Shown here piece after piece: positions 8,133-15,700 of a stretch of DNA of 64,000 nucleotides. Made by a program: the position numbers and the translations under genes. This stretch comes from Escherichia coli. GTDB taxonomy: Bacteria; Pseudomonadota; Gammaproteobacteria; Enterobacterales; Enterobacteriaceae. The notes under the pieces are model-generated. The model did no database searches and was not told where the DNA came from. It saw only the letters and a list, made by a program, of their open reading frames with translations. The DNA lies in the NCBI RefSeq assembly GCF_003790525.1, contig NZ_CP033635.1; one strand, written 5' to 3'. How positions within the stretch are numbered: position 1 is the first letter of the stretch; each line of letters starts with the position of its first letter.

Positions 8133-8864
8133 ATGAAAAAATGGAAAGTACGTAGCGCGTTGATAGCATTAGCCGTGCTGCTGGCCGGTTGTTCCAGTAA
8201 TGCGCAGTATAATAGCAGTGCATCAGGCAATGTCGGCACCGCCTGGGGTGGGGATGTGCACTCATCGGTTCAGGGCGTATCTGCTGAACGAGTCTGGCGC
8301 GATCCGGCAGAGATGATCGTTATTAGTTATTCGACTACTGTTCCTTCGGGCTACGACCGCGTTTATAGCATTCGTATTAACGAACTTGAATATGCTATTC
8401 GCGATGGTAATTTTAATTCTCTACCTATTACGCGGGTTTATGATTCGTCAAATAATGAACCACGCTATATTGTCCATGCCAGAGTAGGAATGAATTATCA
8501 ATTATATGTCCGCAATTACAGTCGTAATACCAACTACGAGATCGTTGCTACGGTTGATGGCCTGGATGTGCTGAACGGCAAGCAAGGTTCGCTGAATAAC
8601 AACGGCTATATTGTGAATGCCGGAGATTCGTTAGCGATTAAAGGATTCCGCAAAGATAAACATACCGAAGCGGCTTTTCAGTTCGCCAACGTTGTTGATT
8701 CCTACGCAGCCAATTCGGCGCAAGGCGATGTGCGTAATACCGGTGTAATCGGCTTTGCCGCCTTTGAATTACAAGGCCCGGCGCAAAACGCGCTGCCGCC
8801 GTGCTCTGGACAAGCCTTTCCGGCGGACAACAATGGCTATGCGCCGCCACCGTGTCGGAAATAG
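8133..8864 (+). CDS. predicted lipoprotein of unknown function (243 aa); not recalled in K-12 between speA and speB
   Basis: Signal peptide MKKWKVRSALIALAVLLAGC with lipobox LAGC; SD gagggaa upstream; own terminator downstream; N/S/Y-rich mature region; lower GC than neighbours by eye. Confidence 0.75.
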   Translation: MKKWKVRSALIALAVLLAGCSSNAQYNSSASGNVGTAWGGDVHSSVQGVSAERVWRDPAEMIVISYSTTVPSGYDRVYSIRINELEYAIRDGNFNSLPITRVYDSSNNEPRYIVHARVGMNYQLYVRNYSRNTNYEIVATVDGLDVLNGKQGSLNNNGYIVNAGDSLAIKGFRKDKHTEAAFQFANVVDSYAANSAQGDVRNTGVIGFAAFELQGPAQNALPPCSGQAFPADNNGYAPPPCRK

Positions 8865-8999: not shown

Positions 9000-9920
9000 A
9001 TGAGCACCTTAGGTCATCAATACGATAACTCACTGGTTTCCAACGCCTTTGGTTTTTTACGCCTGCCGATGAACTTCCAGCCATATGACAGCGATGCTGA
9101 CTGGGTGATTACTGGCGTGCCGTTCGATATGGCCACTTCTGGTCGTGCGGGTGGTCGCCACGGTCCGGCAGCGATCCGTCAGGTTTCGACGAATCTGGCC
9201 TGGGAACACAATCGCTTCCCGTGGAATTTCGACATGCGTGAGCGCCTGAACGTCGTGGACTGCGGCGATCTGGTATATGCCTTCGGAGATGCCCGTGAGA
9301 TGAGCGAGAAGCTGCAGGCGCACGCCGAGAAGCTGCTGGCTGCCGGTAAGCGTATGCTCTCCTTCGGTGGTGACCACTTTGTTACGCTGCCGCTGCTGCG
9401 TGCTCATGCGAAGCATTTCGGTAAAATGGCGCTGGTACACTTTGACGCCCATACCGATACCTACGCTAACGGTTGTGAATTTGACCACGGCACCATGTTC
9501 TATACCGCGCCGAAAGAAGGTCTGATCGACCCGAATCATTCCGTGCAGATTGGTATTCGTACCGAGTTTGATAAAGACAACGGCTTTACCGTGCTGGACG
9601 CCTGCCAGGTGAACGATCGCAGCGTGGATGACGTTATCGCTCAGGTGAAACAGATTGTAGGTGATATGCCGGTTTACCTGACCTTTGATATCGACTGCCT
9701 GGATCCTGCTTTCGCGCCGGGAACCGGTACGCCAGTAATTGGCGGCCTGACCTCCGATCGCGCTATTAAACTGGTACGCGGCCTGAAAGATCTCAACATT
9801 GTTGGGATGGACGTAGTGGAAGTGGCTCCGGCATACGATCAGTCGGAAATCACCGCTCTGGCTGCGGCGACGCTGGCGCTGGAAATGCTGTATATTCAGG
9901 CGGCGAAAAAGGGCGAGTAA
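9000..9920 (+). CDS. speB: agmatinase (agmatine ureohydrolase)
   Basis: 306-aa [38 protein letters not shown]... matches SpeB; arginase-family metal-binding motifs (DAHTD, DIDCLD). Confidence 0.95.
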
Positions 9921-10070
9921 GTCATCTGCCTGGTTGAATTTTTTACACAGTCCCTTGTCTGGCACAAGGGACTTATCATTTAAAACCTATCCTGTTAATT
10001 AAGTCATCTTTACCCTGACTGCTGTTTTTTTAATGGATTGTTATTATCACGTTTTTAATGGAATAAATAG

Positions 10071-11633
10071 ATGGAACGCACTCTTCCCTGGAAGCCCCTT
10101 CTTTGTTTGTTATTTCTTTTATCAACTGGCTGCGATAGAGCAGAAAAACAGAAAATTGCCGCACAGCTGCAACAAGACAAAGAAGCTATTTCCTCTGTCG
10201 TCAAAAAGAGTTATCGCGCATTATGTGGCCCTGAGTTTGTCACCAGCACAGATTCGCACGATCGCCTTGCGGAAATGCAGCAAGTATTTACACCTGCTTT
10301 AATGGAGCCTGTACTGAAATACTGGCAAGAGTCACCCAAAACGTGTAAACGACGTTTCCCCAGTTATAGCGATCCTTCAGCGACCTTCGTCGAAGGCGAC
10401 AAGGCGCAGATTGGTGCTTTTTTTGGTCACCAATCTTATATTGATATTCCAATGGAGTTAATCCGGCAAGGGGATGGTAAATGGAAGATTACTGCGATTG
10501 ATTTTGCATCGTTACACGAGTTTGAAAAAAACGGTCGGGTTACTGGTGAGGTGCAGAAGCAAATAGATTTGCTTAAAAAACGCTCATTCAAGCAACATAG
10601 GGATTCCCCTGTGCTGACGAGGACCGCGCCAGAGCGGGTCAGTAAGTCCCCTTTGACATCGATGGAGCAAACAGTTACGGAGCAAGACTCTTCCTGGCTG
10701 GATGTCTTACTGACAATAGGCAAATATGCCCTTTATCTGGTAGCGATAATACTTATTCTCGCCTTGGTGGCTGTTTTGTGGATTGGTTATGGCCTGGTGT
10801 TCGCCGGACATCGCCTTTTCAAAGCATCCTGTAGAGATCCCTCAATTCAAAAAATTCCTGTGGCTGAACGTTGGGCAATGGCAGTCGGCGCGCCTTATGC
10901 CATTGCGGGTAACAATCACTGGGCGCGACGAGTCGTTAATGATGATTCCGTGGAAGCAGAGAATGATTGCAAAAATGAAGTGGAGTCCCTTGCTGACATG
11001 TGGGGCGTCTTTGATCGGGATTCGTTACTTGAGCAACTCTTAGCTTTGTTTGTAGCAGGACATCGTCCAGTTTATGAAGAACAGATCAAAAACGATAGCG
11101 AAATGCCGGATGCTGAATATCGCGCGTTCGCTCAGCAATTAGCTCAGAACGCGAAATCAAGTAGCGAAGCGAAAGAGCGTTTGTGGCAGCTACAGATGGT
11201 CAGAAAAAATCGACGTAAAATATGCGATATAGATTTTTGTGCCTGGGATATGGTGCGTTTTGTCATGCTATGTAATAGCGGGGCGCAAGTGGGATACATT
11301 ACCCAGCGTGAAATGGTCGATTTTTCGATGCTGGCAGCCAGACGCGTACAGCAACATTACAGAAGCTGGCGCGAATTGGCCGGGCATTTTTTGCTGGCCC
11401 GTTGGTACTGGAAAGCAACGGATAAACGGCACCTGATTACCCATATTCTTTTTAAGAAAGCCATTACATCTTTATTAGAAGAGCAGGGGAGTCCGTGGCG
11501 TACTTTACCCTGGGATACTCCATTACCTGAAGGAACAGAGACGGCTTTTGCCTGGGCTTGTGGCGTAAGCACTGCCGATGTCGTAGAGGTGCGATCGGAT
11601 ACACCAGATAAAGCAATCTACGAAGCGAATTGA
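10071..11633 (+). CDS. hypothetical lipoprotein/membrane protein (520 aa): lipobox N-terminal domain, one TM helix, Trp-rich C-terminal domain (possibly DUF1266-like)
   Basis: N-terminus MERTLPWKPLLCLLFLLSTGC (lipobox LSTGC); hydrophobic helix YALYLVAIILILALVAVLWIGYGLVFAG mid-protein; AT-rich coding sequence; not recalled at this position in K-12. Confidence 0.7.
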   Translation: MERTLPWKPLLCLLFLLSTGCDRAEKQKIAAQLQQDKEAISSVVKKSYRALCGPEFVTSTDSHDRLAEMQQVFTPALMEPVLKYWQESPKTCKRRFPSYSDPSATFVEGDKAQIGAFFGHQSYIDIPMELIRQGDGKWKITAIDFASLHEFEKNGRVTGEVQKQIDLLKKRSFKQHRDSPVLTRTAPERVSKSPLTSMEQTVTEQDSSWLDVLLTIGKYALYLVAIILILALVAVLWIGYGLVFAGHRLFKASCRDPSIQKIPVAERWAMAVGAPYAIAGNNHWARRVVNDDSVEAENDCKNEVESLADMWGVFDRDSLLEQLLALFVAGHRPVYEEQIKNDSEMPDAEYRAFAQQLAQNAKSSSEAKERLWQLQMVRKNRRKICDIDFCAWDMVRFVMLCNSGAQVGYITQREMVDFSMLAARRVQQHYRSWRELAGHFLLARWYWKATDKRHLITHILFKKAITSLLEEQGSPWRTLPWDTPLPEGTETAFAWACGVSTADVVEVRSDTPDKAIYEAN

Positions 11634-11680
11634 TGCCCCAAATGATTGAGCTTGTTTAATGACTGTGACCGGCTCTGAAT

Positions 11681-11712
11681 GAAAATTTCTCCGACATTCC
11701 TGTCGGAGAAAT
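11681..11712. terminator. bidirectional hairpin between convergent 520-aa ORF and loiP
   Basis: Inverted repeat ttctccgaca/tgtcggagaa with U-rich flank on minus strand. Confidence 0.5.
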
Positions 11713-11718
11713 ATGAAA

Positions 11719-12477
11719 TCACTTTATCCCATCCGCGCTCATACGATCGCGAATATGCTGGGCGCGTTCGGCGGATGCTGGATGGTCGTCAAACATTGAG
11801 CTTTGACGGCCTTCTTCCAGTTTTGCCAGTTTTTCAAAGCTGGTGGCAAGACCTGCCGGGCTGATGCCGCGTTGGCGCAGAAGATCGTAAGAATAATCAT
11901 CGGCTTCTGCTTCCTGGCGCTGGGAGAATTGCGAATTAACTAATTTCTCGCCCAGATCACCGAGTTGTGATTGAGATAAACTGCCGACAATCCCGCCCGC
12001 AGAGGCCGCAGCTACTCGTACGGCATTTGTACCAAGTGCCACCTGCATCCCTTTCTTCACATGGCCTAACGCTACGTGCCCCATCTCGTGACCGATCACC
12101 GCTTCGACTTCGTTATCTGTCATCATATCCATCAGCCCGCTATAGACGCGGATACAGCCGTTAGCCATTGCAAAGGCGTTCACATCCTTCGCCATATACA
12201 CTTTGTAATTCACCGGCTGACCGTTGATATTGTTGCCTAGCGCATTGGCAATAGTTGTCAGACGTTTAGCGTATTCGCTATTGGTTGGCGCAATCGTCGC
12301 CTTGCTGTCCATCTCCTGACATGCCTGATCGCTCAGGGTTTTCACCTGCGCATCACTCAAACTGTAAGCCTGAAAAGCTTCCGCTCCTGATGAGAGCAGT
12401 CCGTTGGAGTCCATATTCTGGCAACCGGTCAGTACCGTTGCCACGCTCATTGCTACCAATAAGGCGCGAATTTTCAT
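11719..12477 (-). CDS. loiP: outer-membrane M48 metalloprotease lipoprotein LoiP (YggG)
   Basis: ORF 11719..12696; internal start MKIRALLVAMSVATVLTGCQN (lipobox) and HEMGH zinc motif; 252 aa. Confidence 0.9.
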   Translation of the reverse strand: MKIRALLVAMSVATVLTGCQNMDSNGLLSSGAEAFQAYSLSDAQVKTLSDQACQEMDSKATIAPTNSEYAKRLTTIANALGNNINGQPVNYKVYMAKDVNAFAMANGCIRVYSGLMDMMTDNEVEAVIGHEMGHVALGHVKKGMQVALGTNAVRVAAASAGGIVGSLSQSQLGDLGEKLVNSQFSQRQEAEADDYSYDLLRQRGISPAGLATSFEKLAKLEEGRQSSMFDDHPASAERAQHIRDRMSADGIK

Positions 12478-14767: not shown

Positions 14768-14793
14768 AGGGCCGCGAAAGCGGCCCTTTTTTT
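14768..14793. terminator. tktA intrinsic terminator (bidirectional, abuts SPFH gene stop)
   Basis: gggccgc-gaaa-gcggccc followed by ttttttt. Confidence 0.7.
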
Positions 14794-15700
14794 ACTTAGT
14801 AGAGATAAACGGAACTGTGCTGCCGGGGATCATGGTATCGGGCAGTTTACCGTCCCAACGTTCGGCAGTGGTGAGGGCTACAAGTCCGGGATTATCCCGC
14901 AGAGCTTCACCGCGCAGGCGGATCGCTTCTGCTTCAGCCGCACTTTTTAAACGAATAGTTTCAGCCTCTGCCGCGCCTCTTACGCGAATAGTTTCCGCTT
15001 CTGCTTTAGCTGCCGCCAGTTTACTGTCTGCTTCTGCCTGGGCCTGAGTTACCGCTATTTGCGCCTGGATTTTCTCTGTTTCCAGATTTTGCTTACGCGT
15101 GGCAATGGCGACTTCTGCTTTCATTCGGTCTTCAATCGACTTTTCATAAGCGTCAGAAAAATCAATATTTTCAATCTGGACCCCGTCAATTACCACTGGC
15201 CCAACAACGGCTTTGCGCATGGCATTTTGCAGATCCTGAACCAGTTTTGTACGATCCTGTACAGCGCTGATGGCGGTATATTGGCCGAAAACGTTCTCCA
15301 GTTGAGTTGGCAACTGACGGACAATCAGACGATCTTTTAATGCTTCAATGGTGTTGTAGGTGGTATAAACCGCGCCTGCTTCTGAAGGTTTAATGTGGAA
15401 GCTGACTGATACTGTCATTTGTGCCGGTTGCTGGTCGCGGCTGTAGGCCTGTAATCCCTGATAGACCACAGCCTGATTACGCGTGGAAATTTTCTCCACG
15501 CTTTCCATAAACGGGATCTTAAAACCCAGACCCGGCTCGGCAACTTTTACGATTTTTCCGTAGCGCAGCAAAATGCCGCGTTCACCTTCATTAACGGTGT
15601 AATACGAGAGAAATGGCAGCACAACCACGGCAAGCACGCCAATGGCGATAGCAAGAGATTTTTGTGGGCGAAATGAGGTTAATGAAACAGGTGCTTTCAT
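14792..15700 (-). CDS. SPFH/band-7 (prohibitin/HflC-like) membrane protein with C-terminal coiled-coil repeats; not recalled in K-12 between tktA and cmtB
   Basis: N-terminal TM helix LAIAIGVLAVVVLPF, SPFH-like core, C-terminal AEAETIR(V/L)RG repeats and ERWDGKLP motif; SD aggaag upstream of ATG 15700. Confidence 0.7.
   Translation of the reverse strand: MKAPVSLTSFRPQKSLAIAIGVLAVVVLPFLSYYTVNEGERGILLRYGKIVKVAEPGLGFKIPFMESVEKISTRNQAVVYQGLQAYSRDQQPAQMTVSVSFHIKPSEAGAVYTTYNTIEALKDRLIVRQLPTQLENVFGQYTAISAVQDRTKLVQDLQNAMRKAVVGPVVIDGVQIENIDFSDAYEKSIEDRMKAEVAIATRKQNLETEKIQAQIAVTQAQAEADSKLAAAKAEAETIRVRGAAEAETIRLKSAAEAEAIRLRGEALRDNPGLVALTTAERWDGKLPDTMIPGSTVPFISTK

What the first reader, a model, noticed from the sequence alone, without database searches (positions are those of the whole stretch)
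10071..11633. 520-aa lipobox plus TM two-domain protein inserted between speB and loiP
A long AT-rich ORF in a slot that, from memory, is a short convergent intergenic region in K-12. It has a lipoprotein signal (LSTGC), a periplasmic domain of about 190 aa, a single strongly hydrophobic helix and a Trp-rich cytoplasmic domain of about 280 aa (WDMVRFVMLCNSG...LLARWYWKA). That topology resembles a transmembrane signalling or anti-sigma-like protein. The C-terminal domain may be DUF1266-like, but this is only recollection.
Basis: partly seen in the sequence, partly recalled or inferred. Interest (0 to 1): 0.6.

Follow-up and report, generated by a model that had tools for sequence, protein, structure and literature searches.

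The report
Membrane-spanning lipoprotein with DUF1266 domain
The ORF is a real, intact accessory gene for an inner-membrane protein with a small outward-facing domain and an inward-facing domain of a family (DUF1266) whose function nobody knows; public databases already annotate it, and it is an old Escherichia gene that K-12 and about 96% of E. coli have lost.

Summary
Window 10071..11633 (+) is an uninterrupted 520-codon ORF. It is 100% identical in two other complete genomes and is annotated 'DUF1266 domain-containing protein' (WP_023141973.1; identical to UniProt A0A229ANM8). It has a PROSITE-type lipobox (Cys21, Asp at +2), a periplasmic alpha+beta domain with a conserved Cys pair, one TM helix (about 208-247) and a cytoplasmic all-alpha domain matching Pfam DUF1266 end to end (E=3.5e-30).

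It sits in 211 of 5426 complete E. coli genomes, always between speB and loiP. K-12 has a 205-bp REP-like spacer there. E. albertii has the gene in the same slot at flank-like divergence, so it is ancestral and mostly lost, not inserted.

The anti-sigma/signalling reading is not supported. No regulator or other partner gene is conserved across six genomic contexts, and no known signalling domain is present.

My best guess, at low confidence, is a membrane-face protein-binding adaptor with a lineage-specific periplasmic binding domain. This is a new architectural variant of an uncharacterised family. Interest is modest.

The parts
10071..11633 (+). Complete CDS, 520 codons plus stop: DUF1266 domain-containing bitopic lipoprotein (identical to WP_023141973.1 / A0A229ANM8)
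10071..10133 (+). Residues 1-21: lipoprotein signal peptide. n-region has R3 and K8, h-region is L10-S18, lipobox is L-S-T-G-C21. Asp22 at +2 is the classical inner-membrane retention (Lol-avoidance) residue.
   Evidence: PROSITE PS51257 regex match in this protein and all relatives; T19, C21 and D22 invariant
10134..10604 (+). Residues 22-178: periplasmic alpha+beta domain (helices 23-95, strands 99-143, helices 145-178), NTF2-like cone in the model. Cys52 and Cys92 are conserved, probably as a disulfide.
   Evidence: AF2 block-mean pLDDT mostly 85-96, lower at residues 21-30 and 51-60; Foldseek best PDB hits are NTF2-like folds, but all have E>0.3; Cys conservation; no homologues outside this family
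10605..10691 (+). Residues 179-207: low-confidence, Pro/Ser/Thr/Glu-rich linker. Its length varies between genera.
   Evidence: pLDDT <50 at residues 189-205; alignment gaps
10692..10811 (+). Residues 208-247: single transmembrane helix, acidic before and basic after
10860..11525 (+). Residues 264-485: structural DUF1266 domain, 12 helices (264-478) in the model. It begins with the family's 'RWAxA' motif about 20 residues after the TM helix. Family-wide invariant or near-invariant residues: W311, G330-H331-R332, W392-D393, R396, G404, G408, E414, W433, R444, W447, P475, W481.
   Evidence: Pfam match 306-481; alignment of 111 relatives; AF2 C-domain pLDDT 93.3, pTM 0.90
9949..9973 (+). Terminator-like hairpin after speB. 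It lies inside the segment that differs from K-12.
11685..11712 (-). 12-bp-stem hairpin between the ORF stop and the loiP stop. The T-run is on the minus strand, so it is loiP's terminator and possibly bidirectional. It is part of the segment absent from K-12.

Best explanation
WHAT IT IS (shown or strongly inferred). It is an intact accessory gene under purifying selection. It encodes a bitopic inner-membrane lipoprotein. The precursor is exported and acylated at Cys21, and Asp at +2 keeps it in the inner membrane. A roughly 155-residue NTF2-like domain, probably locked by a Cys52-Cys92 disulfide, faces the periplasm. A flexible linker leads to one TM helix. A DUF1266 all-alpha domain is held about 20 residues from the cytoplasmic face of the membrane.

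The gene stands alone, with no conserved partner gene. It is ancestral to Escherichia and has been lost or is decaying in most lineages.

HOW IT MOST LIKELY WORKS (inferred, low confidence). DUF1266 is a non-enzymatic, helical-repeat-like binding module that works at a membrane surface. Here the core unit, a TM anchor plus cytoplasmic DUF1266, is the same as in its nearest relatives. This core would bind a cytoplasmic or membrane-protein partner. One candidate is the membrane-anchored J-protein/Hsp70 machinery, with which the K-12 paralogues YbeR and YbeU are translationally coupled.

The periplasmic NTF2-like domain is a later, lineage-specific addition. It would bind a periplasmic ligand or protein and so localise or modulate the adaptor. 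No transcriptional output is implied.
For: Identity and topology:
- Intact ORF.
- Pfam DUF1266 E=3.5e-30 over the whole model.
- Lipobox with Asp at +2, conserved in Escherichia, Klebsiella spallanzanii, Hafnia and Leminorella.
- Positive-inside charge distribution.
- Conserved Cys pair only in the predicted periplasmic domain.
- Confident AF2 models.

Selection: dN/dS is 0.18-0.31 between E. coli alleles and 0.19 in the DUF1266 part.

Solitary gene: six different neighbourhoods.

Core unit:
- Leminorella P0007 has the lipobox, TM and DUF1266 but no periplasmic domain.
- Of 111 nearest DUF1266 relatives, 45 have a single N-out TM anchor and 16 have several TM segments (this count includes seven members of the finding's own family). 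About 17 are exported behind a signal peptide or lipobox. 24 have no hydrophobic segment. The median tether is about 38 residues.
- The domain therefore works next to a membrane and on either face, which argues against an NTP-dependent enzyme.

Binding-module reading:
- The only recurrent fusion partners among 44 long relatives are TPR repeats or a second DUF1266.

Chaperone lead: in K-12, ybeR and ybeU each overlap by 4 nt the J-protein genes djlB and djlC. Both J-proteins end in a hydrophobic C-terminal anchor. They lie beside Sel1/TPR genes and hscC. YbeR and YbeU are 21-23% identical to this domain.
Against: - No experiment or paper addresses DUF1266.
- The chaperone link rests on distant paralogues only. 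No J-protein gene lies next to this gene or next to any relative examined.
- The family-wide invariant polar residues (H331, R332, D393, R396, E414, R444) would also fit a catalytic or small-ligand site.
- The NTF2-like assignment of the N-domain rests on Foldseek hits with E>0.3.
- Lipidation, topology and the disulfide are sequence predictions only.
- Nonsense alleles exist in E. coli EC9 (codon 90) and E. albertii (codon 462), and E. albertii has many truncated forms. The gene is therefore dispensable in those lineages.
Confidence: 0.35

Rival explanations
1. DUF1266 is a ligand-binding or catalytic domain. It would act on something present at both faces of the inner membrane, such as lipid head groups or a polyprenyl-linked envelope precursor. 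The protein would then be a membrane-surface enzyme or sensor rather than a protein adaptor.
For: - The invariant polar and aromatic set (W311, H331, R332, W392, D393, R396, E414, W433, R444, W447) is kept across relatives that are only 21-35% identical.
- These residues sit at helix starts, which is compatible with one conserved pocket.
- The domain is tethered close to the membrane on either side.
- It is Trp-rich.
Against: - No fusion to enzymatic domains among 44 long relatives.
- I could not map the conserved residues in 3D because model coordinates are not exposed.
Confidence: 0.17
2. One reading: a transmembrane signalling or anti-sigma-like protein. The periplasmic domain would sense a signal and the cytoplasmic domain would sequester or release a regulator.
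For: - Bitopic sensor-like topology.
- The NTF2-like cone is a common small-ligand-binding fold.
- Highest conservation is in the juxtamembrane and cytoplasmic parts.
Against: - No sigma factor or regulator is a conserved neighbour in six contexts.
- No anti-sigma or signalling domain in Pfam or NCBIfam.
- Many DUF1266 domains are exported, which does not fit a dedicated cytoplasmic regulator-binding domain.
- Leminorella and most relatives lack any sensor domain.
Confidence: 0.12
3. An orphan immunity or protective protein. The periplasmic NTF2-like lipoprotein domain would neutralise a periplasm-acting toxin, as Tai3 neutralises the T6SS amidase Tae3. The rest of the protein would anchor it.
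For: - Foldseek lists Tai3 (4hzb_E, 4hz9_B) among the best N-domain matches, with probability 0.87-0.89 and TM-score 0.45 relative to the target.
- Patchy distribution: 3.9% of E. coli.
- Low GC.
- The N-domain evolves faster than the C-domain: dN 0.031 against 0.007.
Against: - The Foldseek E-values are 0.47-0.68, which shows fold-level resemblance only.
- No toxin, T6SS or CDI gene is adjacent in any context.
- The most conserved part is the cytoplasmic domain, which an immunity role would not need.
- The position is chromosomal, collinear and vertically inherited in Escherichia.
Confidence: 0.1
4. A decaying relic: the gene is still open in this strain but no longer has a function.
For: - Lost from about 96% of E. 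coli.
- Nonsense at codon 90 in EC9 (EC9 is annotated as split, as is G5) and at codon 462 in E. albertii.
- The E. albertii cluster holds 15 different lengths from 78 to 516 aa.
- No consensus sigma-70 promoter was found upstream.
Against: - Annotated as one intact CDS in every carrier listed except EC9 and G5. The scan shows 20 of the 211, and 210 cover at least 80% of the gene.
- dN/dS is 0.18-0.31 overall and 0.19 in DUF1266.
- Full-length orthologues are kept in Klebsiella spallanzanii and Hafnia at 40-51% identity, with all motifs present.
Confidence: 0.1
5. A single-gene anti-phage defence or superinfection-exclusion protein at the inner membrane.
For: It is a patchy accessory gene for a membrane protein. 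Some distant relatives lie near integrases or transposases.
Against: - No PADLOC model hit.
- No PHROG hit of note.
- No tblastn hit in 50,697 phage records.
- It is not in a defence island. The flanks are speB, loiP and tkt.
Confidence: 0.05

Closest known systems
Pfam PF06889 (DUF1266), including E. coli K-12 YbeR and YbeU
   Same: The C-terminal domain matches the whole Pfam model (E=3.5e-30) and carries the family's invariant motifs. It is 21-23% identical to YbeR and YbeU.
   Different: YbeR and YbeU are 235-aa proteins without a signal peptide or TM helix. Their genes overlap J-protein genes (djlB, djlC) next to hscC. This protein is 520 aa, membrane-spanning and solitary, and it carries an extra periplasmic domain. 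No member of the family has a known function.
N-terminally TM-anchored DUF1266 proteins of 300-350 aa (e.g. Photorhabdus A0A7X5QFX3, Proteus A0AAJ0Y6Y8, Paraburkholderia A0A1N6FFP0)
   Same: They share the core unit, one TM helix followed after a short tether by a cytoplasmic DUF1266. Sequence identity is 25-38%.
   Different: They have only a few extracytoplasmic residues. This family has added a lipoprotein signal, a 155-aa folded periplasmic domain and a linker in front of the TM helix.
NTF2-like periplasmic or intermembrane-space domains (Tai3 T6SS immunity protein 4hzb/4hz9; PARC6 IMS domain 5u9o; YybH 2gxf)
   Same: The predicted fold of residues 23-178 is helices packed on a curved antiparallel sheet. 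These are the top Foldseek PDB hits. Both Tai3 and this N-domain are exported, a statement that rests on general knowledge for Tai3.
   Different: E-values are 0.3-2.5 and identity 12-16%, so homology is not shown. No effector gene is adjacent. No sequence homologue of the N-domain exists outside this gene family.
Bitopic anti-sigma factors (RseA/RskA type)
   Same: A single-pass inner-membrane protein with one periplasmic and one cytoplasmic domain.
   Different: Anti-sigma factors have an N-terminal cytoplasmic anti-sigma domain and an adjacent ECF sigma gene. Here the cytoplasmic domain is C-terminal, it is DUF1266, and no sigma gene is nearby.

Membership tests
DUF1266 (Pfam PF06889) | Significant full-length match to the family HMM | tested here: met
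   E=3.5e-30, score 105.9, model positions 1-175 of 175, residues 306-481; RefSeq and UniProt use the same name
DUF1266 (Pfam PF06889) | Family-wide conserved motifs: WG..R, GHR, AWDxxR, GYxxExE, SW, GRxFW, SPW..PW | tested here: met
   W311, G330-H331-R332, W392-D393, R396, G404, G408, E414, W433, R444, W447, P475 and W481 are invariant or at least 90% conserved in 111 sequences
Bacterial lipoprotein (PROSITE PS51257 lipobox) | Basic n-region, uncharged h-region, [LIVMFWSTAG]2-[LIVMFYSTAGCQ]-[AGS]-C with Cys at position 15-35 | tested here: met
   Regex match ends at Cys21; R3 and K8 lie in the n-region; Cys is invariant in all relatives
Bacterial lipoprotein (PROSITE PS51257 lipobox) | Actual Lgt/LspA processing and acylation; inner-membrane retention through Asp at +2 | not testable with these tools
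   Asp22 is invariant, consistent with Lol avoidance from established E. coli rules. No SignalP/LipoP tool and no experiment were available.
Anti-sigma factor (bitopic, ECF-linked) | Recognisable anti-sigma domain (e.g. zf-HC2, RskA, RseA_N) on the cytoplasmic side | tested here: not met
   Pfam finds only DUF1266; NCBIfam finds nothing relevant
Anti-sigma factor (bitopic, ECF-linked) | Adjacent, co-oriented sigma-factor gene | tested here: not met
   Neighbours are speB and loiP here, and marC, adh/selA or cupin/flavodoxin elsewhere
NTF2-like superfamily (N-terminal domain) | Alpha+beta cone fold with significant structural or profile similarity to members | tested here: inconclusive
   The AF2 topology fits. 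The best Foldseek hits are NTF2-like, but with E 0.34-2.5 and TM-score 0.44-0.47 relative to the target. No Pfam hit, even at E no higher than 10.
T6SS/polymorphic-toxin immunity protein (Tai3-like) | Gene adjacent to its cognate effector or toxin | tested here: not met
   No effector-like gene in any context
J-protein/Hsp70-coupled DUF1266 (YbeR-DjlB, YbeU-DjlC type) | DUF1266 gene overlapping or adjacent to a J-domain protein gene, with Sel1/TPR and Hsp70 genes nearby | tested here: not met
   The arrangement is present in K-12. It is absent at this locus and at all relatives' loci examined.
Known anti-phage defence systems (PADLOC-DB 2.0) | Match to a defence-protein model | tested here: not met
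   0 families at E no higher than 0.1; no phage-record hits

The most novel reading that the evidence does not exclude
DUF1266 would be a new fold family: membrane-face adaptors that recruit the non-canonical Hsp70 system (HscC with the membrane-anchored J-proteins DjlB and DjlC). This 520-aa protein would be a trans-envelope version, in which a periplasmic NTF2-like sensor couples an envelope cue to cytoplasmic chaperone recruitment. That would give both DUF1266 and the orphan HscC system a first function.
Probability: 0.07. Interest if true: 0.6.

Novelty: new variant of a known kind. Interest (0 to 1): 0.3.

Why it matters

This gene shows two things. The domain is used as a membrane-tethered cytoplasmic module, and it can be coupled to a periplasmic domain. 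That narrows where to look for its function.

In itself it is one already-annotated hypothetical accessory gene that most E. coli have discarded. Its practical value is as a natural presence/absence pair (carrier strains against K-12) for phenotype tests.

Tried and rejected
1. Sequence search of the PDB with the protein and with a 111-sequence profile gave only chance hits with E of at least 0.15.
3. AFDB50 returned only other 'DUF1266 domain-containing protein' entries.
4. PADLOC, PHROGs and NCBIfam gave nothing useful. The weak NCBIfam hit PRK11380 is another unnamed hypothetical family.
5. A profile search for homologues of the N-domain in 5.8 billion proteins found only fragments of this same gene.
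6. Literature searches (DUF1266; PF06889; YbeR/YbeU; HscC/DjlB/DjlC/YbeQ/YbeT; speB+loiP island) found nothing on function. The single DUF1266 mention is an H-NS-repressed gene with locus tag EC042_RS03510 in strain 042. From its tag number I infer it is a different gene, probably in the ybeR/ybeU region.
I therefore have no systematic neighbourhood statistics.
8. Three of the later context look-ups returned contigs too short to be informative, and a fourth had almost no downstream flank.
9. I considered a HEPN-like Rx4H motif (R453-H458). I rejected it because that stretch is not conserved in the wider family and there are no HEPN fold hits.
10. The partial copy in strain IH5 lies in a mosaic of truncated gene fragments. 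I discounted it as a probable assembly artefact.
11. Rfam found no RNA family in 9800-11900.
Full report

Window 10071..11633 (+) is an uninterrupted ATG-started ORF of 520 codons. The same 1563 bases occur at 100% identity in E. coli GF131 and TUM1586, and at 95.7-98.7% in about 200 other complete genomes. It is always a single chromosomal copy. It is annotated as one CDS, 'DUF1266 domain-containing protein' (WP_023141973.1; identical to UniProt A0A229ANM8).

- Composition: the ORF is 47.0% GC (GC3 44.3%), against 55-56% (GC3 62%) for speB and tkt.
- K-12 slot: speB and loiP are convergent, with a 205-bp REP-like palindromic spacer and no gene.

2. ANATOMY

Signal and lipobox. Residues 1-21 satisfy the PROSITE lipobox rule (R3/K8, LCLLFLLSTGC, Cys21) and Asp follows at +2. 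Every relative in Escherichia, Klebsiella spallanzanii, Hafnia and Leminorella also matches, and T19, C21 and D22 are invariant. By the established E. coli sorting rule, Asp at +2 keeps a lipoprotein in the inner membrane. This step is inferred, not tested.

Periplasmic domain. AlphaFold2 (111-sequence alignment, mean pLDDT 87.4) gives helices 23-95, strands 99-143 and helices 145-178, mostly at pLDDT 85-96 in 10-residue blocks. Residues 189-205 form a disordered linker with pLDDT below 50. One long helix spans 208-243, and the rest is all-alpha. The periplasmic domain has two conserved cysteines, C52 and C92, which fits an oxidising compartment.

Membrane helix. The only hydrophobic stretch after the signal is 209-247 (Kyte-Doolittle up to 3.07). 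The 26 residues before it hold 1 K/R and 4 D/E. The 30 residues after it hold 5 K/R. The C-terminal domain is therefore cytoplasmic.

C-terminal domain. It matches Pfam DUF1266 end to end (residues 306-481, E=3.5e-30). Alignment with relatives shows that the structural domain starts earlier, at the 'RWAxA' motif around residue 266, only about 20 residues after the membrane. A separate model of residues 250-520 is very confident (pLDDT 93.3, pTM 0.90).

3. WHAT THE TWO DOMAINS RESEMBLE

C-domain:
- AFDB50 returns only other unnamed DUF1266 proteins.
- An exhaustive HMMER scan of 1.84 billion representatives finds 1196 relatives at E no higher than 0.001. Only 20 have E no higher than 1e-30.
- The full-length architecture is limited to a handful of enterobacterial clusters.

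N-domain:
- Its best Foldseek hits are NTF2-like cones: the PARC6 intermembrane-space domain, the T6SS immunity protein Tai3, iota-carbonic anhydrase and YybH.
- All have E>0.3 and 12-16% identity, so this is a fold-level suggestion only.
- It has no Pfam hit.
- A profile search of 5.8 billion proteins finds only fragments of this same gene.

4. ARCHITECTURE IN THE WIDER FAMILY

I classified 111 of the nearest DUF1266 relatives (sequences). This set includes the finding's own protein and seven close family members.

| N-terminal feature | Count |
|---|---|
| Single TM helix with K/R after it (N-out, domain cytoplasmic) | 45 |
| Two or three TM segments | 16 |
| Signal peptide or lipobox directly in front of the domain (domain exported) | about 17 |
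| No hydrophobic segment (some are fragments) | 24 |
| One segment, orientation ambiguous | 9 |

The median tether between the hydrophobic segment and the domain is about 38 residues.

- The Leminorella protein P0007 has the lipobox, a short linker, the TM helix and DUF1266, but no folded periplasmic domain.
- The conserved unit is therefore 'TM anchor plus membrane-proximal DUF1266'. The periplasmic domain is a lineage-specific addition.
- Among 44 long relatives, the only recurrent extra domains are TPR repeats or a second DUF1266.
- Family-wide invariant residues are W311, G330-H331-R332, W392-D393, R396, E414, W433, R444 and W447.

5. GENOMIC CONTEXT AND HISTORY

The gene has no conserved partner.

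| Organism or locus | Neighbours |
|---|---|
| This strain (E. coli) | speB and loiP |
| Klebsiella spallanzanii | marC and an MFS transporter gene |
| Two Hafnia-like/Leminorella loci | an alcohol dehydrogenase gene and selA |
| One further locus | cupin and flavodoxin-like genes |

- There is no hit in 50,697 phage records and only 8 weak hits in plasmid records.
- E. albertii carries the gene in the same speB-loiP slot, collinear and gap-free. Nucleotide identity is 93.1%, against speB 95.3, tkt 95.9, loiP 88.9, the 243-aa lipoprotein gene 84.8 and the prohibitin gene 87.1.
- The gene is therefore ancestral to Escherichia. K-12 and about 96% of E. coli (5215 of 5426) have lost it. It was not inserted.
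- Decay is visible. E. coli EC9 has a nonsense codon at position 90, and G5, at the same identity, is likewise annotated as split. The E. albertii copy examined has one at codon 462. The E. albertii cluster contains 15 different product lengths.
- The open alleles are nevertheless under purifying selection. dN/dS is 0.18-0.31 overall, 0.19 in DUF1266 and 0.34 in the N-domain.

6. MECHANISM

Shown or strongly inferred: the product is a solitary, bitopic inner-membrane lipoprotein with a periplasmic alpha+beta domain and a cytoplasmic DUF1266 domain held close to the membrane.

Inferred at low confidence (about 0.35): DUF1266 is a non-enzymatic binding module that works at a membrane face.

For this reading:
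- The domain occurs on both sides of the membrane, so it is unlikely to need NTPs.
- It is fused only to TPR repeats or to itself.
- Its faint structural matches are helical repeats.
- In K-12, the paralogues ybeR and ybeU each overlap by 4 nt a J-protein gene (djlB, djlC). Both J-protein products end in a hydrophobic C-terminal anchor. They lie next to Sel1/TPR genes and the Hsp70 gene hscC.

Against this reading:
- The paralogues are only 21-23% identical to this domain.
- No J-protein gene lies next to this gene or next to any TM-anchored relative I could inspect.
- The invariant polar residues would equally suit a ligand or catalytic pocket, which is the main rival (0.17).
- I could not map the residues in 3D because the tools do not expose coordinates.

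Other rivals:
- The anti-sigma/signalling reading (0.12) lacks any regulator partner or signalling domain.
- An orphan immunity role (0.10) rests only on the Tai3 fold resemblance and the patchy distribution, with no toxin nearby.
- A functionless relic (0.10) is opposed by dN/dS and by intact orthologues in other genera.
- Phage defence (0.05) has no support.

7. COMPARISON AND NOVELTY

- Membership of DUF1266 and the lipobox pattern were both tested and met.
- Anti-sigma, Tai3-type immunity, J-protein-coupled DUF1266 and PADLOC defence were each tested on a defining feature and not met.
- NTF2-like membership of the N-domain is inconclusive.
- The gene is already annotated in RefSeq and UniProt, but only as a DUF. 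No paper in the searched library deals with DUF1266.
- The architecture 'lipoprotein signal + orphan periplasmic domain + TM + DUF1266' is a narrow enterobacterial variant of the common 'TM + DUF1266' type. I therefore rate it a new variant of a known but uncharacterised kind.

8. VERDICT

Its functional analogy and the word 'inserted' were not.

A specialist would not be surprised by one more hypothetical accessory membrane protein that is being lost. The modest interest (0.3) comes from three points:
- DUF1266 is a sizeable family with no structural relative and no known function.
- This protein fixes the compartment and membrane proximity of the domain.
- Carrier strains and K-12 form a natural knockout pair for experiments.

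Noticed in passing
window 8133..8864 (+): A 243-aa lipoprotein gene (lipobox LLAGC) lies between speA and speB and is annotated 'hypothetical protein'. It is absent from K-12 but present in 3556 of 5426 complete E. coli genomes and in E. albertii. It has no family hit beyond signal-peptide-level matches.
   Followed up: partly
window 14792..15700 (-): A prohibitin/Band_7 family gene lies between tkt and cmtB. It is present in 1830 of 5426 E. coli genomes and in E. albertii. E. albertii carries all three accessory genes around speB-tkt in the same order, and the K-12 stretch examined lacks at least the other two, so this arrangement is probably the ancestral one.
   Followed up: partly
L002 1822..2026 (K-12 speB-loiP spacer), compared with window 9921..11718: The K-12 spacer is REP/BIME-like palindromic DNA (repeated GCCGGATAAG...GCATCCGGCA units). 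It replaces the whole segment from just after the speB stop codon to just before the loiP stop codon.
   Followed up: partly
L007 (E. coli IH5, NZ_CP168949.1 5129797-5140443): A 647-bp piece of this ORF lies in a run of about 20 mostly truncated, unrelated gene fragments (T6SS, btuB, Gsp, IS66, integrase, wca genes). This looks like an assembly artefact, not a second locus.
   Followed up: no
L013 2864..3049 and L016 1120..1335: The TM-anchored DUF1266 relatives P0017 and P0019 are each followed, with a 4-nt overlap, by a gene that starts with another N-out TM anchor followed by an Arg-rich stretch. These may be tandem paralogues or a coupled partner. The contigs end too soon to tell.
   Followed up: partly
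L009 3938..8890 (K-12 ybeR-djlB, ybeU-djlC): Both J-proteins have HPE rather than the canonical HPD in the J-domain motif. Both end in a hydrophobic C-terminal anchor. Each gene overlaps its upstream DUF1266 gene by 4 nt.
   Followed up: no
L008 2501..4063 (E. coli EC9) and L015 5001..6563 (E. albertii): These loci carry independent nonsense alleles of the gene, at codon 90 and codon 462. The E. albertii 90%-identity cluster contains products of 15 different lengths, which suggests repeated pseudogenisation.
   Followed up: partly
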